From a virus (Duplodnaviria; Caudoviricetes), in the IMG/VR virus record IMGVR_UViG_3300047564_001096, positions 1 to 63,694 of that record: a stretch of 63,694 nt of DNA; one strand, 5' to 3'. The first letter of the stretch is position 1. Every line of letters begins with the position of its first letter. A program made the position numbers and the translations under genes. The notes under the pieces are model-generated. The model was not told where the DNA came from, did no database searches, and was given only the letters and a program-made list of their open reading frames with translations. Shown here in pieces: positions 21,180 to 42,971 of this stretch.

Positions 21180-22319
21180 ATGACTGATAGATTTTATGCG
21201 GGTTTTGTTAATGCGGCATACGTTGGGGCTAGAGCACCCAATGCACCAACTTCTGCGGCTGCTGATAAAGGAAATGGAAATGCGGAAATAAGTTTTACTC
21301 CTCCCTCTAACTTAGGTACAGGCGGCGCAGTAACTTACCGAGCAACATCAACACCAGGAAATTTTACAGGTACGAGCGCTTCTTCACCAATTACAGTAAA
21401 TGGGTTAACTAACGGTGTAACTTATACATTTCAAGTAACTGCTATTAATACTTATGGTGAAAGTCCTGGAAGTAACGTAACAAATGCTGTAACTCCTAGC
21501 GTTGCTGGTCAAAGACTTTATACAGGGGGTACTTTTACTTTTGTAGTCCCAACAGGAACTACTTCTGTTAGCGTAGTTTGCGTAGGCGGTGGTGGGGCTG
21601 GTGGCTATTATGGAACTGGCGCTGGTTCTGGCGGAGGTCTTAGATATAAAAATAATATTACTGTAACTCCTGGACAGTCAATTGCTATAGCTGCCCCTGC
21701 TTTTGCTCAGTTTGGTTCTCCTGGTGGTAATGCAGAGTTTGGCACTAACGGAGTTGATGCTTTTTATTTTTTTGGAGGCGGCGGTGGGTCTGGAGGCGGT
21801 GCTTCTGTTGGTACTGGCTCAACAATTGGTGGCGCTGCAGATGGCGGTGGTAACGGCGGATCAACAGGTTCTTATGCAGGCGGCGGCGGTGCTGGCGGAT
21901 ATTCTGGTAACGGTGGCAATGCAGGTACTTCTCCAGGCGCTTCTGGCTCTGCTGGTGCAGGCGGTGGCGGTGGCGGTGGTTATGGTGTCAGCTTCCCAGG
22001 TACTAATTATTCGGGTAGCGGCGGTGGTGTTGGAGTTTTAGGTGCTGGCGCAAACGGTGCTGGCGGCACGGGGTCAAGTCAAACCGCAGGTTCTGGTGGT
22101 GTTAGTGAACCATCTAAAAATGGTCAAGGTGGTTCTGGCGGCTTAGCTACACCAGGAAATCTATTTGGTATTGGTGGTAACTACGGTGGTGGTGGCGGTG
22201 GTGTTTACGGATATACCGAAAACTACACTGGAGGTGGTGCAGCCGCAGTTAGGATTATTTACCCAGCAACAGGCGCTATAACACGTTCTTTCCCATCAAC
22301 TAATACAGGTGATATTTAA
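21180..22319 (+). CDS. Tail fibre/adhesin with fibronectin type III and glycine-rich domains
   Basis: ITVNGLTNGVTYTFQVTAIN (FN3); VVCVGGGG Gly-rich domain. Confidence 0.8.
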   Translation: MTDRFYAGFVNAAYVGARAPNAPTSAAADKGNGNAEISFTPPSNLGTGGAVTYRATSTPGNFTGTSASSPITVNGLTNGVTYTFQVTAINTYGESPGSNVTNAVTPSVAGQRLYTGGTFTFVVPTGTTSVSVVCVGGGGAGGYYGTGAGSGGGLRYKNNITVTPGQSIAIAAPAFAQFGSPGGNAEFGTNGVDAFYFFGGGGGSGGGASVGTGSTIGGAADGGGNGGSTGSYAGGGGAGGYSGNGGNAGTSPGASGSAGAGGGGGGGYGVSFPGTNYSGSGGGVGVLGAGANGAGGTGSSQTAGSGGVSEPSKNGQGGSGGLATPGNLFGIGGNYGGGGGGVYGYTENYTGGGAAAVRIIYPATGAITRSFPSTNTGDI

Positions 22320-23278
22320 TGCCAACCTATAGTGGAGTTTGGACCCCCGCACAAGTAATGCAACAAGCTGGTTCAGGACTTTGGCCTGGAGTAACTCTAC
22401 CAGGACAACAAGTATATGTAGGCTCATTTTATGGTGGTGGCGGGTCTAATACCTATACTTGGGTTTGTCCTCCAGGAGTTACTCTTGTTAGCGTTTGTTG
22501 TATTGGCTCTGGCGCTACTAGTGGATCTGGAGTTAGTACGGGCACTTATTCAGGTTGTGGGGGCGGTGGATTAGGCTGGAAAAATAATATTGCTGTAATA
22601 CCAGGAAATTCATACACAGTTCTAGCAGGTAATAGTAACTGGGCAACTAGCGTAGCTGTGGATGGCAACATATCTTATTTTAATACTTCTGGGACTGTAA
22701 GTGGTGGAGGGGGAATTAAAGGGGCTGGAGGAAGTGGTGGCGCTGGTGGCACATACACAGGTGATGGTGGTGGTATTGGAGGTGCTGGCGGTTTTGGTTA
22801 TTACGGGTACCCTAGCACTTTTTCAACAGGTGGCGGTGCAGGTGGCGCTGGTGGTTATACAGGTAATGGTGGTAATGGTGGTAATGGGAATTATTCTCCA
22901 GGTGGTGGCTCTCCTGGCGCATCTGGTGCTGGTGGTGGCGGTGGAGGTGGCGGTGGCGGAAATTATTATGGTCCTCCAGGATACAACGGAGGCGGTGGTG
23001 GCGGTGGTGGCGTTGGGATTTTAGGGCAAGGCGCAAACGGTGCAGGTGGTGCCGCTGGTGACCCTCCCTTTGGTGGCGGTGGCGGTTCGGGCGGTAGTGC
23101 GGGTGCAAATGCAACTTCTGGTCCTGTCAATGGCGCGATAGGTGGTTCATATGGTGGCGGTGGCGGCAGCGGGTTTTATAATTATGGCAATGGTGGTGAA
23201 GGCGCAGTAAGAATAATGTGGCAAGGACCAGTCCCTGGAACACCAAGATCATATCCAAGTAATGCTGGCAATCTTTAA
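22319..23278 (+). CDS. Glycine-rich tail fibre protein
   Basis: TWVCPPGVTLVSV...GAVRIMW; paralogous Gly-rich domain. Confidence 0.8.
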   Translation: MPTYSGVWTPAQVMQQAGSGLWPGVTLPGQQVYVGSFYGGGGSNTYTWVCPPGVTLVSVCCIGSGATSGSGVSTGTYSGCGGGGLGWKNNIAVIPGNSYTVLAGNSNWATSVAVDGNISYFNTSGTVSGGGGIKGAGGSGGAGGTYTGDGGGIGGAGGFGYYGYPSTFSTGGGAGGAGGYTGNGGNGGNGNYSPGGGSPGASGAGGGGGGGGGGNYYGPPGYNGGGGGGGGVGILGQGANGAGGAAGDPPFGGGGGSGGSAGANATSGPVNGAIGGSYGGGGGSGFYNYGNGGEGAVRIMWQGPVPGTPRSYPSNAGNL

Positions 23279-35792: not shown

Positions 35793-38700
35793 GTGGCTAT
35801 AAAAGAATTTACTGGCGAATTAGAACCAGTTAAACCTAGCAGGTTAGTTGAATTTACTGGAGAGTTAGAAAAACCAGAAGAAGTTAAACCTGTAAAACCT
35901 GCGAGTTTTTCTGCTAAAGATACCGCTATTGCTTTAGGGCAAGGTATTGTTGGTGCTGGTAAATCTTTAACCGATGTGTTTGGTGCTGAGAACGTAGCTT
36001 CTAGAAAGCTAGGTGAGGTATCTAAAACGCTAGGGGAACAAATCTCTCCAGAGCGCCAAGCAGAAATGCAACGGCGCCAAGTTCTACAAGAAAAAGCTTC
36101 TAAAGGTACTTTAACTGAAGAAATTAGCGCTTACTTAGGTGGCGTAACTGAAGCCCCAGTCCAAGCTCTTGCACAAGGTTTAGGTTCAATCGTGCCATAC
36201 ATTGGCACAGGAATTATTGGCGGAATTGCTAAATTAGGTGGAGCAACAATCACGGCTTTAAATACTGTGGTAGGTGCGGCTCAAGGCGCTGGTTCTATTA
36301 AGGGTTCTTTATACGACAGCGTTAAACAAGAATTAGAGAAGTCAGGAATGAGTCCCAAAGAAGCTGCAGCTAAAGCTTCTAAAGCCCAAGAGTATCTTGG
36401 AGAAAACTTCTTAGACATAGCTGGTGGCTCTGCATTAGGTGGCGTAGGCGCTAGGTTTGGTGTTGAGAAACTATTGCAAAGAGGCGCTGCTGATAAGTTA
36501 AGCCCTAGTTTAATACCCCGTGTTGGTAAGGCAGCGTTGGCTGAAGCCCCATTAGAAGGAGCACAAGGTGCTCAAGAACAGTTAGCAATTAACCGTGCCC
36601 TACAAAAACAAGGTTTTGATGTTGATACATTCCAAGGCGTAGCAGGTGCTGCTGCTCGTGACGCAGCTGTTGGTGCTTTAACTGGCGCCGCAGTAGGTGT
36701 TCGTGGACCAAGCTCAGTTGCAGAAACACCGCCGCCTCCTACTACAGAACCTGGCAAAGAAACTACAACTGCGCCTCCCCCTGTACCGCCAGTAACACCG
36801 CCTACTACAGATGCTGCTACTGAAGCTCTTTTGGCTTCTACTATTGACCCCGTTACTGGACAGTTTGTACAACAGTTTGCTACTCCATCAGCAACAGAAA
36901 CGCCTGTTATAGCCGAAGCAGATAAGCAAGCCGCTATTAAAAAGGTTTCTGAACTAGAAATTGATAATGCTAGGATTCAAGCTAAATTAGCTGCTGGCGA
37001 ATACAAAGCGCCACAAGCAAAAGCTGCTGCACAAAACAAATTAGCAAAACAACAAGCACTCATTGATGAACTTAAAACACAAATAGGAGGTCAAGATGCT
37101 TTTCAACAGACTAACGCTGGAACAAGTGGAGTTGGCGCTGGAATACCTGGAGGATCCGCAACAACTGGAGCCGCCGCAGGAGCTACAGATACTGGACTTG
37201 GACGACCTGGAGTGGACAGCGATCAGGGTCTTGAATCAGCACCTCAAGACGGAGAGAGCGCACAGCAGCCTACATTAGATATAAATCAACTAGATGAAAT
37301 AGAGCTAGCTCGGTTACAAGAGTTAGCAGATGCTAGAGAAGCTGGTTATAACATTGATGCAGAGTTAGTTAATTTAGGCAATCAAGTTCAAGAAAGATTA
37401 GCTACTACAACAGAAGTAATTGACGAACAAGCATTAGCCGACCAAGAAGCTAAAGCCGCTGCCGCAGCAGAAGCATCACGCCTAGCTGAAGAACAAAGAT
37501 TAGCTACAGAAGCTCAAGCCCAAGCCGCAGAACAAGCACGCTTAGCTGAAGAACAGAGATTAGCCGCAGAACAACAAGCTGCGTTAGAAGCAGAGCAAGC
37601 TGCATTAAATGAAGAAGCTGCCGCTGAGTTAGCTGGTGAAGTAACACCTCCTACCGTTACACCCTCTACCGTTACACCCTCTACCGTTACACCCCCTACC
37701 GTTACACCCCCTACCGTTACACCCCCTACCGTTACACCTACCAAACCTCCTGTAGTTGAAGAGTTTACTGGTGAGTTAGACGAAGAAACACCACAGGGTG
37801 CAATAGAAACTAAAGTAAAAGCCTTTGAAGACATCCGTAAGCTATTGGCGTTTCCTGAAAAATTAGGCACTTTAGATAAAAAAGCAAAAACACCTGGCGT
37901 ACAGGGCGAAGTAATTAAGGAAGAGAAAGTAGCCAAACCAATTAAATGGCGTGGCAAGAAGGGTACTAAAACCGAAAACCCATCGCCTTATAACTTCTTA
38001 AACGAAAACGGCTACTACTCTGATAAGTCCCCAGAACAAATTGCAGAGCAAAGCACGGCTATTGCAGCTAAAGACAAAAAAGCTACCGTTAAAAATGCCG
38101 TAGAAGCTGGCGTTGAATCCGCTGCCTTTGATGAGGCTTACGACTTGTATGACAGCATTGCTTACGACGAAAAGGTATTGCCAGAAATCAAACAAGTAAT
38201 GGCTCAGCGTCAAGCTGCTAAAGATGCAGAAGTAGATGCGCTTAACGAAGAACGTAAAGCTAATCGTGAAGCTAAACGGGCGCAAATGACTCGTGATGGC
38301 AAGAGCGAAAAAGTCATTAAAGAAGCTTTATCTGTAATTAAGAACGTACGAAAAGTTAAATACCAAGAGACTAAGCCGCTTGAGTTTATGTCTGAGCAAG
38401 AAGTATTAGATCTGTTTAAAAAGAATATTGGTACTAAGACTGAAAAACAGATGGCAAAAGAAGGCGGTCAGGCTAGGATAGATGCTGCTAAAAATAGAAA
38501 CGCTTTTGTAGACGTACTAAACCCTAACGATAAAATTAAGTTCAGCATGATGGCTGAATCCATACTTGATATGGAGATTATCTCGGCTGTCCAGGACAAT
38601 AAGGTTACTACTGCTGGCGACAGGCGCACTGAAAATTACAGAAAGAAACAAGAAAAGAAAGTCATTAGCGAAGTTGAACAGCAACTTAAAGACGCTGAGA

Positions 38701-41700
38701 TAACTGCTAAGCAAATAGAACAGAAAGCTGAACGCATTGCCAAACGTGCTGAGGAAAAGAAACAGGAAAGAGCACAAGTAACAAAAGAAGTTGAAACTGA
38801 AGAGGCAGAAGCCAAGTCTAAACTTGTTGTTAGCATAGAAAAAAGTATTGTTGCAGGTAGCCTTGATACTGTTCTAGAAGTTATTGCAGATAAAAAGAAA
38901 GAAGTAAACGAGTCAACTACCAGAAACATTGCTCAGTCGTTTATAGACCTTGTTAGTGATTTTGGAAACATCACTATTCAGTTTGGTAATGTGCCAAAAG
39001 GCAAAGACGGTCAGTTTGACCCAAGCAACAATACTATTACTATTAAGGGTGAAAACGGCGTATATACGGGTGAACGTGCGTTAGATGAAACTGTTCTACA
39101 CGAGGTAGGGCACTACCTAACCGATCATATATTTGATAGCAAAGAAAATCAAAAAGCGTATTTAAATGGTATTAAAGACCCTGCTAAGCGTAAAGCAGCG
39201 CAAGATGCTATCAATCGCCTAAATAACAACTACCGTCTTGTAAAGAGCAAGCTTGGTAATAAGTTTAATATTCCGACAATTAAAGAATTCATTGCTGAGA
39301 TTTACTCAAACCCTAGATTCCAAGAAGCTGTAGCAGCGCTTGATACTGGCGAATTAGGTATTGATTACAAAAAGTTTGTTGAAACTAAACCCGAAACAGA
39401 GACCGAAGAAGCAGAAGGCTATGTAACTGGAACAGGTAAAGAAATTCCAGGTCCAGTTAAACAGTATGTGCCAGCTAAAGAAAGTCTGTTCCAGAAGATT
39501 GTTAAAAACATAGCAAACGTTCTTGGTTTTAATATCAAAGAAAAAGAAGGGTTTGTAAACGATCCAGCTAGAGGCGTAACTCTAAAACAAGCAATTGAAG
39601 ATATTGCTCGAATCATATCGTTGCCTACCGCAAATATACGTGGTACAGAAGTCTCTTATTCTACGGCTCCCGCCGCCGCTGCAAAGCCAGGTGACAAAAT
39701 ACCTAAGTATTTGCACGTAACAGATCCAGATTCTACTGACCCTAACGAAAACAAAGACTTTAATTTGCCAGCAAGACCTGTTCCTAGGTTACGTATGATG
39801 ATTAAAGAACTGTTTACAACAGTTAAGCCTTGGCGTGAGCTAGTAAGATTGTTCCAAGACAGAGCCTATTGGGGTAACGTTTTACAAAATCAATTAAATG
39901 CGTCTGGTCTAATTAACTTTGTAAATACTCCTGGTGAACCAAGCAAGGGCATAAATAATTTTATGACTCAAATTAACTTGGCTACTTCAAAAGGTCGTAA
40001 CATATACATGGAAAAAATATCAGGTCTGTATACAGACTTGAATTTAGCGGTTAATGGTTTTATGGATGCCACCAATAAAACAGTTGACGAAGCGCTTAAA
40101 ACTCTTCAGATATATTTGCAGGCTTTGCACGATTCAGAACGTAGAGATGTAAAGTACATATTTACTGTACCGCTTTCTAATAAAGAAAATATACCTCAAA
40201 AAGGCAGTAAGACTGGAATGATTAGCGCTTCTTTGCGTAGACAGCAAATTGTAGGCGACCCAGAAAAAGGTATTAAGGGTTTACTAGATAACCCAAACAT
40301 TACTGAAGCTCAGTCAAAAGCGCTGCGCAAAGAGTTAGACACTTATATCTTTGAAAAAGATGCCAAAGGCGAGTTTGTATTAGATGCTAACGGCTACAAA
40401 AAACCTAATACTAAATACGTAGATCCTTTGGGTTACAGCCCTACTGGCAATAAAGACATAAACGTAGCTAATCCTGCTTTTATACCTAGTGGTATGGAGC
40501 CGATAGAAGTAAAAACTATTGTTAAAAAATACGAAAGTCACCCACAAAAAGCTGAAATAGATGCTGTTATTAAACAGTTACAGGCTCTCCATAAAGTAAC
40601 TATAGAGCTAAATAAAGACGCTTATTACTGGGCACAGCCTGTAAGTAATAGGGTTGCGTTCTATGGATTTGAAAATTATGTACCGCTTAAAGCCAACAAA
40701 AACCACAAGATGCTTGACGAAGAATTGTCTTTAAATTTTGACGGTGTAGGCGAAGACGCAAGACGAGGTAAACAATTTCAAGACATAGCTCAAGCGTTTG
40801 TTGGACACATAGCTCCTTCTAATAACCCTGTACTGCAAAGTTTGTCAGAAGCTATTATCGCTGCTAATCGTGCTGGTAATGGCACTGATTTGACGTTGTC
40901 AATAAGAAATGCTTTAGAAAAAAGTGACTTAAATCCTGACGGTCAAGGTCTAATTAAAGGAACAGTAGTGCAACACATTCCGTTTAGTGAGCGTTCTAAG
41001 TCTGTTATTGACGCTATTAAACGAGAAAACACTGTATTTCACTACAACAAGGATGGCAGTATTGACGTGTTAGAGATCCGTGAGAAAAAAATCCGTGAGT
41101 CTATCCGTCGTACTTATGAGACTGCCAATCAGTTAACTCAGTTTGCTAACACAGTAACTAGCACGTTGGGTCAATTACACACTAGATATAACTTTAACTT
41201 TGCTCCGCTAAACTTTGTTCGTGACGCATTAACCAACGCTTGGGCTATTGGCGCTGGAATGGGTCCTAAAAAATCCGTAGAATTTATTACGCAGATAGCT
41301 GGAGTTGTAGCAAAAACTGGTTTCACAGGCAAAGCTTTTAAAGTAGCTGCCATGTACGAAAGTAAAAACGTTAATCAGTTAGAAGCCCTAGCAAAGAAAG
41401 ACCCTGATATTAGGGACATGTACGAGCTAATAAAAGAAGGCGGCATGGTGGAGTACATGGAAGGCTTGTCTATTAAGTCCAACCTAAACAAGCTTCGTAA
41501 AGAAGTAGGTCGTTCTGGAATAATGACTAAGTTAGACCAATTTAACAGAGTAATTGATATTTGGACTAACGTATTTGAAATTGCAAGCCGTTCCGCCGCC
41601 TACAGTGTTACTAAGAAAAGTTTCCATACTAAGAATATTGCTAAGGGAATGGATGACAAACCAGGTCCTAACGGCGAACCTTCTCCAGCGTTAAAAGCAG

Positions 41701-42971
41701 CGATGGTAGAAGCAGCTGACTTTACTAAAAACTTAGCTAACTTCCAAAAAGTTGGTGAATATGGTCGTGGTATGGGAGCAGCATTTATGTTCTTCCGCCC
41801 ATCTGCAACGGGCGCTGTTCGTGCTATCGAAGCTGTTGCTCCAGCGTTTAGAGATATAGAAGCTGCAGTTGCTGAGCTGCCCCCAATAATTAGAGATAAC
41901 AAAGAAGCTTTAGCTAAGTTTAGAAAAGACTACGCAAGCAAAAAGAAATCAGCCCAACAAATGATGACGGCTTTAATGTCTATGGGTATGCTTGCGTATT
42001 TAATTTCTTTCATGATGTCTGAAGAAGATGACATGGGCAGGAACAAAGCTGCAACAGATGACATGGGTCAATGGAATCGTTTCTGGCGCATTCATATTCC
42101 TGGCGTTGATACCCCGTTTCAAATGCCGTGGGGCTTTGGTTTAGGTTCTTTTATGGCAGCTGGCGCTCAAATGATGGCAGCGTTTATGGGTAAACAGTCG
42201 TTTGGCTCAGCGTTGACTAACGTAAGCACTCAGATTGCGCTTGATTCGTTTGTTCCAATTCCTGTATCCCGCATGAGCGCTGTCGAGAATCCTGGTATGT
42301 GGTTTATAGATTCTATTACGCCAAGCACATTGCGTCCTATAGTTGAGTTAGTAGTTAATAAAAACGGTTTAGGACAGGATATTAGAAACGTAGCTAGCAG
42401 CCGCCGTATGGGCGATGCTTTCTTGGGCGGCGACAATATCCCAGAGTCTTATAAAGATATGGCAGAGTACTTTAACGTAGCTACTGGCGGTTTTGTAGAT
42501 GTAAGTCCTAACGTTATGTACTTCTTATTTAATAGTTATATGGATGGACCTGCTAAATTAGGTGATTTAATTTATAACTCTATGTATTTAGTAACAGGCG
42601 AAAAAGAATTTAAAGCCAAGACTGACGTGCCGTTTATTGGTTCGTTCATCGGTGCTGCACCTAACGTTGATAGTAGAGAGTGGACATCTACCGAGAAACA
42701 AATTTTAGAAATGAAACGTCGGTTAAATGCTCCTAATCCAGATGCAGTAGATAAATTTTTAGACAACAACCCGCTTGCAGAAATAGTCACTAATTTGTAC
42801 GATCAAAATTTAGTTGAACTTAATCGACTTCGTAAAGAAGGTAACGATATTCGCGCAGGTGGGTATACGCCTAAAGAACGTGTTGAGCTTTTAGAAATGA
42901 ATAAGATGGAGCAAAACATGGTGAAGGCTAATCTAGTTGAGATGTTTAAGGACTACGACATTAAACCCTAA
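35793..42971 (+). CDS. Giant polyvalent/ejection protein with HExxH metallopeptidase-like and C-terminal LPD38-like regions
   Basis: 2392 aa; LHEVGH at 39096-39113; NFVRD...FMFF...PWGFG C-terminal region. Confidence 0.7.
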   Translation: MAIKEFTGELEPVKPSRLVEFTGELEKPEEVKPVKPASFSAKDTAIALGQGIVGAGKSLTDVFGAENVASRKLGEVSKTLGEQISPERQAEMQRRQVLQEKASKGTLTEEISAYLGGVTEAPVQALAQGLGSIVPYIGTGIIGGIAKLGGATITALNTVVGAAQGAGSIKGSLYDSVKQELEKSGMSPKEAAAKASKAQEYLGENFLDIAGGSALGGVGARFGVEKLLQRGAADKLSPSLIPRVGKAALAEAPLEGAQGAQEQLAINRALQKQGFDVDTFQGVAGAAARDAAVGALTGAAVGVRGPSSVAETPPPPTTEPGKETTTAPPPVPPVTPPTTDAATEALLASTIDPVTGQFVQQFATPSATETPVIAEADKQAAIKKVSELEIDNARIQAKLAAGEYKAPQAKAAAQNKLAKQQALIDELKTQIGGQDAFQQTNAGTSGVGAGIPGGSATTGAAAGATDTGLGRPGVDSDQGLESAPQDGESAQQPTLDINQLDEIELARLQELADAREAGYNIDAELVNLGNQVQERLATTTEVIDEQALADQEAKAAAAAEASRLAEEQRLATEAQAQAAEQARLAEEQRLAAEQQAALEAEQAALNEEAAAELAGEVTPPTVTPSTVTPSTVTPPTVTPPTVTPPTVTPTKPPVVEEFTGELDEETPQGAIETKVKAFEDIRKLLAFPEKLGTLDKKAKTPGVQGEVIKEEKVAKPIKWRGKKGTKTENPSPYNFLNENGYYSDKSPEQIAEQSTAIAAKDKKATVKNAVEAGVESAAFDEAYDLYDSIAYDEKVLPEIKQVMAQRQAAKDAEVDALNEERKANREAKRAQMTRDGKSEKVIKEALSVIKNVRKVKYQETKPLEFMSEQEVLDLFKKNIGTKTEKQMAKEGGQARIDAAKNRNAFVDVLNPNDKIKFSMMAESILDMEIISAVQDNKVTTAGDRRTENYRKKQEKKVISEVEQQLKDAEITAKQIEQKAERIAKRAEEKKQERAQVTKEVETEEAEAKSKLVVSIEKSIVAGSLDTVLEVIADKKKEVNESTTRNIAQSFIDLVSDFGNITIQFGNVPKGKDGQFDPSNNTITIKGENGVYTGERALDETVLHEVGHYLTDHIFDSKENQKAYLNGIKDPAKRKAAQDAINRLNNNYRLVKSKLGNKFNIPTIKEFIAEIYSNPRFQEAVAALDTGELGIDYKKFVETKPETETEEAEGYVTGTGKEIPGPVKQYVPAKESLFQKIVKNIANVLGFNIKEKEGFVNDPARGVTLKQAIEDIARIISLPTANIRGTEVSYSTAPAAAAKPGDKIPKYLHVTDPDSTDPNENKDFNLPARPVPRLRMMIKELFTTVKPWRELVRLFQDRAYWGNVLQNQLNASGLINFVNTPGEPSKGINNFMTQINLATSKGRNIYMEKISGLYTDLNLAVNGFMDATNKTVDEALKTLQIYLQALHDSERRDVKYIFTVPLSNKENIPQKGSKTGMISASLRRQQIVGDPEKGIKGLLDNPNITEAQSKALRKELDTYIFEKDAKGEFVLDANGYKKPNTKYVDPLGYSPTGNKDINVANPAFIPSGMEPIEVKTIVKKYESHPQKAEIDAVIKQLQALHKVTIELNKDAYYWAQPVSNRVAFYGFENYVPLKANKNHKMLDEELSLNFDGVGEDARRGKQFQDIAQAFVGHIAPSNNPVLQSLSEAIIAANRAGNGTDLTLSIRNALEKSDLNPDGQGLIKGTVVQHIPFSERSKSVIDAIKRENTVFHYNKDGSIDVLEIREKKIRESIRRTYETANQLTQFANTVTSTLGQLHTRYNFNFAPLNFVRDALTNAWAIGAGMGPKKSVEFITQIAGVVAKTGFTGKAFKVAAMYESKNVNQLEALAKKDPDIRDMYELIKEGGMVEYMEGLSIKSNLNKLRKEVGRSGIMTKLDQFNRVIDIWTNVFEIASRSAAYSVTKKSFHTKNIAKGMDDKPGPNGEPSPALKAAMVEAADFTKNLANFQKVGEYGRGMGAAFMFFRPSATGAVRAIEAVAPAFRDIEAAVAELPPIIRDNKEALAKFRKDYASKKKSAQQMMTALMSMGMLAYLISFMMSEEDDMGRNKAATDDMGQWNRFWRIHIPGVDTPFQMPWGFGLGSFMAAGAQMMAAFMGKQSFGSALTNVSTQIALDSFVPIPVSRMSAVENPGMWFIDSITPSTLRPIVELVVNKNGLGQDIRNVASSRRMGDAFLGGDNIPESYKDMAEYFNVATGGFVDVSPNVMYFLFNSYMDGPAKLGDLIYNSMYLVTGEKEFKAKTDVPFIGSFIGAAPNVDSREWTSTEKQILEMKRRLNAPNPDAVDKFLDNNPLAEIVTNLYDQNLVELNRLRKEGNDIRAGGYTPKERVELLEMNKMEQNMVKANLVEMFKDYDIKP
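37096..37278 (+). CDS. Overprinted 60-aa gene in the +1 frame of the giant gene
   Basis: AGGAGGT SD at 37085-37091; amphipathic helical product; host frame is low-complexity here. Confidence 0.65.
   Translation: MLFNRLTLEQVELALEYLEDPQQLEPPQELQILDLDDLEWTAIRVLNQHLKTERAHSSLH
37641..37742 (+). repeat. 15-bp tandem repeat (6 full + 1 partial) encoding VTP(P/S)T
   Basis: GTTACACCCYCTACC units. Confidence 0.95.

What the first reader, a model, noticed from the sequence alone, without database searches (positions are those of the whole stretch)
37085..37278. Overprinted gene hidden inside the giant ejection-protein gene
Seen: a near-ideal SD (AGGAGGT) lies 4 nt before an ATG opening a 60-aa +1-frame ORF with a natural-looking amphipathic helical product (LTLEQVELALEYLEDP...LEWTAIRVL). 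Over exactly this span the host frame becomes a disordered G/A/T/D linker rich in GGA codons, as expected when the overlapping frame is the constrained one. Inference: a chaperone, inhibitor or antitoxin for the giant protein (for example its HExxH domain), genetically inseparable from it.
Basis: partly seen in the sequence, partly recalled or inferred. Interest (0 to 1): 0.7.

Follow-up and report, generated by a model that had tools for sequence, protein, structure and literature searches.

The report
Hidden gene inside giant phage gene
A 60-codon gene read in a shifted frame inside a freshwater phage's giant virion-protein gene is real and is kept in more than a hundred related phage genomes, but what its small acidic protein does is still unknown.

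Summary
AGGAGGT (37085-37091) lies 4 nt before an ATG that opens a 60-codon ORF (37096-37278) in the +1 frame of a 2392-aa LPD38 "polyvalent" virion-protein gene (35793-42971).

The ORF is not a by-product of linker composition. A homologous ORF was found in 109 fetched loci from uncultured phages, and all 110 (window included) are nested in a giant gene in the same relative frame. A start codon sits at the same place in 107 of 110, and 104 of those 107 have an SD-like core.

Selection acts mainly on the nested frame:
- Its protein is more conserved than the host frame in 171 of 171 pairs.
- Changes silent in the ORF but not in the host outnumber the reverse 697 to 173.
- Host third-position variability collapses only over the ORF (3 of 87 windows).
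- All 5 natural variants inside the ORF are ORF-silent and host-altering.

The product is an acidic three-helix protein of about 57 aa with no Pfam, PHROG or fold relatives. A profile search found 312 metagenomic clusters.

The gene is well supported.

The parts
35793..42971 (+). Host gene: 2392-aa giant 'polyvalent' virion (probable ejection) protein. HEVGH zincin-type motif at residues 1103-1107 (nt 39099-39113), one strongly hydrophobic segment at residues 2057-2075, LPD38 domain at residues 2095-2281.
   Evidence: ORF. Pfam PF18857 LPD38, E 4.3e-16. Motif and hydrophobic window. It sits after virion structural, tail-fibre and 'DNA ejection protein' PHROG matches. 337 relatives at E<=0.001 among the 7999 candidates scored.
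37085..37091 (+). Shine-Dalgarno sequence AGGAGGT of the nested gene. In the host frame it is encoded by the Gly-Gly codons of ...IGGQD.
   Evidence: An SD-like core lies in the 13 bases from -16 to -4 before the start in 104 of 107 loci that have a start at the expected place. The phage's own genes use such cores: 34 of 57 long ORFs.
37096..37278 (+). Nested +1-frame gene: 60 codons plus TAG. The product, P0001, is acidic (pI 4.5, net charge about -8) and is predicted to form three helices (8-19, 28-31, 37-56).
   Evidence: Conservation and selection tests.
37095..37277 (+). Host-frame codons 435-495: a low-complexity linker that carries the nested gene. This is the weakly constrained frame here.

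Best explanation
37096-37278 is a genuine protein-coding gene, wholly nested in the +1 frame of the giant LPD38 virion-protein gene. It is translated on its own from an internal Shine-Dalgarno sequence and ATG on the late mRNA of the giant gene. Its product is an acidic three-helix protein of about 57-60 aa.

Over these 183 bases the nested frame carries most of the selective constraint. The host frame is a tolerant, disordered linker whose codons (for example GGA for Gly) are dictated by the nested gene.

Shown: the ORF, its start, SD and stop are conserved, it is always nested, and purifying selection acts on its frame.

Inferred (about 0.35): the protein works with the giant ejection protein that is made from the same message. 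It could be an assembly or packaging chaperone, or a brake on the protein's activity in the producing cell. The nested arrangement would then give co-expression and co-inheritance with the N-terminal module that always precedes it.
For: 1. Conservation. tblastn with the window's 60-aa product found one full-length match in each of 19 of the 29 loci fetched through the giant protein (E 1e-30 to 6e-5). L029 carries a divergent copy. Further copies came from 9 loci fetched with alignment A3 and 80 fetched with A4. All 110 of 110 (window plus 109 loci) lie inside a large ORF in the same relative frame. In the set of 80, the host ORF is at least 1000 aa in 75 and is cut by the contig end in 5.

2. 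Start, SD and stop. At 55-62 codons before the stop there is an ATG in 94, GTG in 10 and TTG in 3 of 110; the other 3 start further upstream. An SD-like core is present in 104 of 107. The length is 57 aa in 80 of those 107. The stop is TAG in 69, TAA in 36 and TGA in 2, at the same aligned place. The host residues that encode the ATG vary (D or N, followed by A, V or D) while the ATG is kept.

3. Selection.
- ORF-frame identity exceeds host-frame identity in 171 of 171 pairs of 19 distinct sequences (means 49% and 30%).
- Entropy at ORF codon positions 1/2/3 is 0.99/0.71/1.17, so the host's third position is the least variable.
- On an alignment built from the HOST proteins of 22 loci, host third-position entropy falls below the mean of positions 1 and 2 in only 3 of 87 windows. 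Those three are consecutive and cover residues ~425-490 of P0002, almost all of the overlap at 435-495.
- Along 57 close-pair edges, 697 changes are ORF-synonymous and host-nonsynonymous, against 173 of the reverse kind. The expected share of the first kind is 0.44.
- The host-frame linker is less conserved than the rest of the protein in 14 of 14 close relatives.

4. Not a composition artefact. P(+1 frame open | host protein, codon usage) is 0.006-0.20 per locus.

5. Natural populations. In contigs from 4 freshwater runs, 5 of 5 variants inside the ORF are ORF-synonymous and host-nonsynonymous. Upstream of the ORF, 11 of 16 variants are host-synonymous.

6. Initiation context. The mRNA within 25 nt either side of the start is less folded than the gene average in 68 of 76 loci.

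7. A profile of the product finds 312 small proteins (E<=1e-3) among 1.84 billion cluster representatives. In the 150 listed, the match runs to the C-terminus. AlphaFold2 with 101 sequences gives pLDDT 83.
Against: There is no direct evidence of translation: no Ribo-seq or proteomics, and no cultured relative (no tblastn match among 50,697 GenBank phage records).

Five of 25 informative giant-gene homologs (L006, L015, L017, L018, L022) lack the ORF, so it is not universal.

89 of the 109 loci were fetched by similarity to the ORF itself. They test nestedness, not prevalence. Many loci are close kin: 89 distinct nucleotide sequences and 84 distinct proteins among the 107 with a start at the expected place. 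The p-value therefore overstates independence.

16 of 110 lack an ATG at the expected place.

The functional part rests on position alone. No family, fold or fusion partner gives a hint.
Confidence: 0.88

Rival explanations
1. The gene is real, but its product does not act on the giant protein. It acts on the host cell or on a competitor, for example as a small acidic inhibitor, DNA mimic or anti-defence factor, and merely uses the tolerant linker as coding space.
For: The product is small, acidic (median pI 4.5) and helical, like many phage-encoded inhibitors (recalled generalisation). Giant genes with homologous N- and C-terminal parts exist without it (L015, L006), so the giant protein does not strictly need it.
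Against: It sits in a late structural block and always 425-535 codons into the giant gene. It was never found free-standing in 110 loci. That pattern fits a linked function better than a movable accessory gene. No match in PADLOC-type or anti-defence terms was sought, so this rival is not tested.
Confidence: 0.3
2. The frame is read by a programmed +1 ribosomal frameshift from the giant gene. This would give a truncated isoform (about 434 N-terminal residues plus about 60 alternative C-terminal residues) rather than a free small protein.
For: A strong SD-like element inside a coding region can stimulate +1 shifting, as in prfB (recalled). Selection on the +1 frame would also be expected for a frameshift product.
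Against: A start codon stands at the same aligned place in 107 of 110 loci, which a frameshift product does not need. In the first 20 loci examined, the +1 frame is closed by a stop only 3-16 codons upstream of the chosen start. The window has TAG at 37084-37086, leaving 9 nt for a shift. There is no 0-frame stop or run of identical bases there. The SD-to-ATG spacing matches that of the phage's ordinary genes.
Confidence: 0.05
3. There is no second gene. The open +1 frame and the apparent SD are side effects of a Gly/Ala/Thr-rich linker, or of a nucleotide-level signal such as RNA structure or a packaging or regulatory site.
For: A linker poor in hydrophobic residues has few T at codon position 2 and so few +1-frame stops (reasoning from the code). 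The product's Leu/Glu richness follows partly from host codons of the type xCT GGA.
Against: Resampling host codons keeps the frame open in only 0.6-20% of trials per locus. Substitutions are mostly silent in the +1 frame and amino-acid-changing in the host frame (697 vs 173; 5 of 5 natural variants). That is the signature of a protein, not of an RNA or DNA signal. The host frame diverges to 13-30% identity while the ORF product keeps 35-45%.
Confidence: 0.02

Closest known systems
Rz/Rz1 spanin gene pair of phage lambda (recalled from general knowledge; no paper read here)
   Same: A small gene lies wholly nested in the +1 frame of a larger phage gene, with its own ribosome-binding site and start. 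Both products are made from one late message.
   Different: Rz1 is an outer-membrane lipoprotein with a signal peptide and lipobox Cys, nested in a gene of about 150 codons in the lysis cassette. Here the product is acidic and soluble-looking, has no Cys in the window's copy, and shows no sequence similarity to any Pfam or PHROG family. The host gene is a 2392-aa virion protein in the structural block.
Overprinted genes of Microviridae (phiX174 B in A, E in D, K). Recalled; the review PMC8227390 was seen only as a search listing and abstract start.
   Same: Out-of-frame overlap created or maintained by overprinting, with two proteins from one stretch of DNA.
   Different: Those occur in tiny ssDNA genomes under strong size limits. 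This one is in a 63.7-kb dsDNA tailed-phage genome. The nested frame is the more constrained one, and the host frame is the disordered one.
Programmed-frameshift products of phage structural genes (tail assembly chaperone G/GT type; recalled)
   Same: A conserved alternative reading frame within the structural module.
   Different: Those need a slippery site and give a fusion protein. Here there is a conserved start codon and SD, with an upstream +1-frame stop.
Giant LPD38-bearing polyvalent/ejection proteins, for example phi24B gp47 (2811 aa). Passages read in bioRxiv 10.64898/2026.04.10.717836 and in Iyer et al. 2017, PMC5512222.
   Same: The host gene has an LPD38 domain and a zincin-type HExxH motif. 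gp47 was detected in virions by proteomics, and its authors propose it is a capsid-packaged ejection protein.
   Different: tblastn of the window's giant protein finds only weak C-terminal matches in cultured phages (identity 24-25% in the listed rows, at most 27% of the query covered). Neither paper's searched text mentions an overlapping or frameshifted gene: 'overlapping' and 'frameshift' occur 0 times in PMC5512222.

Membership tests
Out-of-frame nested (overprinted) protein-coding gene | The ORF is kept open, with start and stop at the same aligned place, across diverged homologs | tested here: met
   110 of 110 loci are nested in the same relative frame. A start codon stands at the expected place in 107 of 110, and the stop is at the same place. 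20 of 25 informative loci fetched through the giant protein have the ORF.
Out-of-frame nested (overprinted) protein-coding gene | Purifying selection on the nested frame, with suppressed synonymous variation in the host frame confined to the overlap | tested here: met
   171 of 171 pairs; 3 of 87 windows, all within the overlap; 697 vs 173 substitutions; 5 of 5 natural variants.
Out-of-frame nested (overprinted) protein-coding gene | Own translation-initiation signal | tested here: met
   AGGAGGT lies 4 nt before the ATG. SD-like core in 104 of 107 loci. Weaker local mRNA folding in 68 of 76 loci.
Out-of-frame nested (overprinted) protein-coding gene | The product is detected (Ribo-seq, MS, tagging) | not testable with these tools
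   No cultured relative and no expression data to hand.
Embedded spanin (Rz1-type o-spanin) | Lipoprotein signal peptide with lipobox Cys; nested in an i-spanin gene of a lysis cassette | tested here: not met
   The window's product has no Cys and no hydrophobic N-terminus. Only 10 of 84 distinct family proteins contain any Cys. The host gene is an LPD38 giant protein in the structural block.
Programmed ribosomal frameshift product | A shift site (slippery run, or a 0-frame stop or hungry codon) and no need for a start codon | tested here: not met
   Nothing of that kind lies in the 9 nt between the upstream +1-frame stop and the ATG. A start codon is conserved in 107 of 110 loci.
Toxin-antitoxin / immunity pair with the giant protein's zincin domain | Direct binding and neutralisation of the partner domain | not testable with these tools
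   No family or fold link for the small protein. Needs a binding or activity assay.
Polyvalent protein of phages (host gene; Iyer et al. 2017) | A very large multidomain protein carrying LPD-type domains and a zincin-like metallopeptidase motif | tested here: met
   2392 aa. PF18857 LPD38 scores 60 bits against a cut-off of 27. HEVGH at 1103-1107, with H1103, E1104 and H1107 invariant in 19 sequences. No metallopeptidase Pfam model matched, so the peptidase assignment rests on the motif alone.

The most novel reading that the evidence does not exclude
The small gene is the senior partner. A free-standing gene for a small acidic protein was run over when two virion-protein genes fused by read-through, so the giant protein's disordered linker is the overprinted frame, not the small gene. 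On this reading the small protein is a dedicated, non-exchangeable chaperone or brake. It would hold the giant ejection protein's N-terminal module in a packageable, unprocessed state until the protein is inside the capsid. This would be a new class of cis-encoded helper for giant injected proteins, hidden from every annotation pipeline in hundreds of freshwater phages.
Probability: 0.2. Interest if true: 0.85.

Novelty: new variant of a known kind. Interest (0 to 1): 0.74.

Why it matters
Fully nested out-of-frame genes are textbook in tiny phages and in the Rz/Rz1 lysis pair. They are rarely documented, with comparative evidence this strong, in large dsDNA tailed phages.

This gene family has no Pfam or PHROG model. 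A profile search finds 312 clusters in metagenomic protein sets, and a single peptide pattern finds 224 IMG/VR stretches. In every locus examined it lies inside a giant virion-protein gene, a place where an annotation that allows no gene inside another would not list it. I did not check how these loci are annotated.

It shows that:
- the disordered linkers of giant 'polyvalent' proteins can hide genes;
- in such overlaps the nested frame can dominate selection;
- apparent conservation of a low-complexity linker can be a shadow of another frame.

It also gives a concrete candidate helper for the little-understood handling of giant ejection proteins. A host-synonymous start-codon knockout would test this once a host is found or a reporter system is built.

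Four literature searches found no description of it. The library is limited to open-access papers and bioRxiv, and supplements were not available.

Tried and rejected
- DNA search of GenBank phages with window 36700-37700: no match. tblastn of the giant protein: 102 records with only weak C-terminal matches.
- The search for related loci with P0002 alone in viral contigs: nothing.
DNA of the close relatives P0003-P0016 (74-94% aa identity) was therefore never obtained; only their proteins were used.
- Genome-contig scan with A1: no relative, so no prophage or host clue.
- Alignment A2 was too diverse for a scan, so sub-alignments A3 and A4 were used.
- Small protein against Pfam, PHROGs, ESM Atlas, a PDB sequence profile, and Foldseek PDB (twice) and BFVD: nothing. 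Best Foldseek E was 1.6-1.9 and best PDB profile E was 0.12.
- Complex prediction of the small protein with giant residues 1-434 and 1000-1200: no verdict, score 0.00, controls not run. This is not evidence either way.
- Search for free-standing or fused forms. The only two long hits with real-looking N-terminal parts are chimeric joins. The first 92 residues of P0209 are 100% identical to 197-225-aa HTH_Tnp_1_2 proteins. The first 251 residues of P0286 belong to a protein whose reading frame is open for 319-343 codons in four of the relatives' loci. None of the 80 kept loci (of 172 found) has the small ORF, and in those four relatives the protein continues differently after the join.
- Codon-usage test of which frame is older: both frames in the overlap are equally atypical (-0.13 and -0.11, against +0.12 elsewhere; ORF score higher in 35 of 81). 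Inconclusive.
- Expression: no RNA holder is listed among 20 runs.
- Considered and dropped: a tree to decide gain versus loss of the ORF (no root available), and a mirror-tree test of co-evolution (confounded by physical linkage).

Full report
WHAT IS THERE. The window is a complete 63,694-base uncultured virus record. Its + strand carries a structural block: portal, virion structural proteins, tail-fibre-like proteins and a 913-aa protein matching a 'DNA ejection protein' PHROG. The block ends in a 2392-aa ORF at 35793..42971. That ORF has a Pfam LPD38 domain at residues 2095-2281 (E 4.3e-16), an HEVGH motif at 1103-1107 and one strongly hydrophobic segment at 2057-2075. It is therefore a phage-type 'polyvalent' giant protein in the sense of Iyer et al. 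2017 (passages read). A protein with the same domain, phi24B gp47, was found in virions by proteomics, and its authors propose it is a packaged ejection protein (passages read).

Inside this gene, AGGAGGT (37085-37091) lies 4 nt before an ATG that opens a 60-codon ORF, 37096..37278, in the +1 frame. It is the longest same-strand alternative-frame ORF in the gene; the next is 38 aa.

IS IT MORE THAN CHANCE? A linker poor in hydrophobic residues has few +1-frame stops, so I tested that explanation directly. I kept each host protein and resampled its codons from the same gene's usage. The +1 frame stayed open in only 0.6-20% of 5000 trials per locus over 28 loci, and in 4.6% for the window.

The giant protein has many relatives: 337 at E<=0.001 among the 7999 candidates scored, running from 94% identity downward. 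Of 29 loci with DNA fetched through the giant protein:
- 20 carry a homolog of the small ORF, once each. tblastn with the window's product alone found 19 of them, E 1e-30 to 6e-5. L029 is a divergent copy.
- 5 have the N-terminal part of a giant gene but no ORF (L006, L015, L017, L018, L022).
- 4 are uninformative: three are cut at the 5' end and one stops at codon 482.

Two further scans with alignments of the small protein itself gave 9 and 80 new loci. The second scan had 224 confirmed stretches, of which the best 80 were kept. In all 110 of 110 (window plus 109 loci) the ORF lies inside a large ORF in the same relative frame. It was never free-standing. In the loci examined for this it begins 425-535 codons into the giant reading frame.

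START, STOP, RBS. At 55-62 codons before the stop there is an ATG in 94 of the 110 loci, GTG in 10 and TTG in 3; the other 3 have upstream ATGs. An SD-like core precedes 104 of the 107. The length is 57 aa in 80. The stop is TAG, TAA or TGA (69, 36 and 2) at the same aligned position. The host amino acids that encode the ATG change (Asp or Asn, followed by Ala, Val or Asp) while the ATG stays.

The phage's ordinary genes use the same kind of SD at the same spacing: 34 of 57 long ORFs. In the first 20 loci the +1 frame is closed only 3-16 codons upstream of the chosen start. The mRNA around the start is less folded than other windows of the same gene in 68 of 76 distinct loci.

WHICH FRAME IS UNDER SELECTION? 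Four independent tests gave the same answer.
- On an alignment guided by the small protein, its identity exceeds that of the host frame over the same bases in 171 of 171 pairs (49% vs 30%). The least variable codon position is the host's third.
- Because that alignment could favour the ORF, I repeated the test on an alignment built from the host proteins of 22 loci. Of 87 windows along the 2392 codons, host third-position entropy drops below that of positions 1 and 2 in only three. They are consecutive and cover residues ~425-490 of P0002, almost all of the overlap at 435-495.
- Along 57 close-pair edges, 697 changes are silent in the ORF but change the host protein, and 173 do the reverse. 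The expected share of the first kind is 0.44. The edges are not fully independent, so the p-value is nominal.
- Among 14 close relatives for which only proteins were available, the host-frame linker is the fastest-evolving part in 14 of 14.

Natural populations agree. The phage occurs in freshwater, lake and drinking-water metagenomes (20 runs, 12 studies). In contigs of four of these runs, all 5 variants inside the ORF are ORF-synonymous and host-nonsynonymous. Upstream of the ORF, 11 of 16 variants are host-synonymous.

Together these results exclude a composition artefact and a purely nucleotide-level signal. They make a frameshift isoform unlikely, because a conserved start codon and SD would then be unnecessary.

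WHAT IS THE PRODUCT? It is a protein of about 57-60 aa, rich in Leu and Glu, with a median pI of 4.5. Nearly invariant residues are L6, A14, L18, P27, L30, L35, W40, L50 and E53, and the consensus C-terminal residue is His. AlphaFold2 with 101 sequences predicts three helices (8-19, 28-31, 37-56) at pLDDT 83.

It has no Pfam or PHROG match, no Atlas look-alike, no PDB sequence match and no Foldseek match below E = 1. A profile search of 1.84 billion cluster representatives finds 312 small proteins at E<=1e-3. The 150 listed are 48-162 aa, and the match runs to their C-terminus. Many have junk-like N-terminal extensions, as expected from alternative upstream starts in the +1 frame. The few I looked up are unnamed or 'hypothetical'.

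Two apparent fusions, P0209 and P0286, are chimeric joins. No cultured phage has the small gene.

HOW IT MOST LIKELY WORKS. Shown: a second gene is maintained in the linker, with its own start signals, and selection acts mainly on it.

Inferred: ribosomes initiate internally on the late giant-gene message, so the small protein is made together with the giant protein. I put the most weight (about 0.35) on a role tied to the giant protein. That role could be a chaperone or packaging adaptor for its N-terminal module, or a brake on its activity in the producing cell. The reasons are that the gene is never free-standing, always follows that module, and sits in the structural block.

A host-directed role as a small acidic inhibitor is nearly as likely (about 0.3), especially since some homologous giant genes do without the ORF. 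One complex prediction gave no verdict and carries no weight. A codon-usage test could not say which frame is older.

COMPARISON AND NOVELTY. In architecture this is closest to lambda Rz/Rz1 (a +1-frame nested gene; recalled) and to microvirus overprinting. It fails the defining features of an embedded spanin: no lipobox, and not in a lysis cassette. It also fails those of a frameshift product.

Four literature searches and term searches within the polyvalent-protein paper found no description of a nested gene in LPD38 or polyvalent genes. The library holds only open-access papers and bioRxiv, and supplements were closed.

I rate it a new variant of a known kind. The gene is well supported (0.88) and the function is open.

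Noticed in passing
window 35805-35822, 35850-35867, 37761-37778: The hexapeptide EFTGEL occurs three times in the giant protein: residues 5-10, 20-25 and 657-662. The copies stand at the very N-terminus and just after the Pro/Thr repeat. They could be a docking or processing motif.
   Followed up: no
window 37528-37790: The region holding the TVTP-type Pro/Thr repeat (mapped at residues 630-650, nt 37680-37742) differs in length between natural populations. Contigs of two runs skip or replace 100-226 bases here, and coverage breaks (tables 2, 5, 8). Close relatives also differ in length here.
   Followed up: partly
L006, L015, L017, L018, L022: These giant-gene homologs have no copy of the nested gene. 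L015 aligns over residues 1-2392 at 38% identity, with a Pro/Thr-type repeat in place of the linker. L017 and L018 share only the N-terminal ~370 residues at 67-68% identity. Whether this reflects loss or never having gained the gene is undecided.
   Followed up: partly
P0209 (526-nt contig) and P0286 (1756-nt contig): Two database 'proteins' join the start of an unrelated phage gene to the small ORF. One is an HTH_Tnp_1_2 protein. The other is a Lys/Glu-rich protein whose reading frame is open for 319-343 codons, found in 172 IMG/VR stretches, several on contigs of 36-39 kb. Both are most likely assembly chimeras.
   Followed up: yes
window 36889: One run's contig lacks 6 bases here, an in-frame loss of two codons of the giant gene in the Ala/Thr/Pro-rich stretch upstream of the coiled-coil segment (table 4).
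   Followed up: no
whole window: The phage has no close cultured relative. The best GenBank phage matches to the giant protein are Vibrio and Pasteurella phages at about 24-25% identity over the C-terminal fifth to quarter. The stretch laid (36600-37800) recurs in freshwater, lake and drinking-water metagenomes of 12 studies.
   Followed up: partly
window 21180-22319 and 22319-23278: Two adjacent genes match the same PHROG of unknown function (phrog_4474, E about 1e-35 each). This is a tandem duplicate in the structural block.
   Followed up: no
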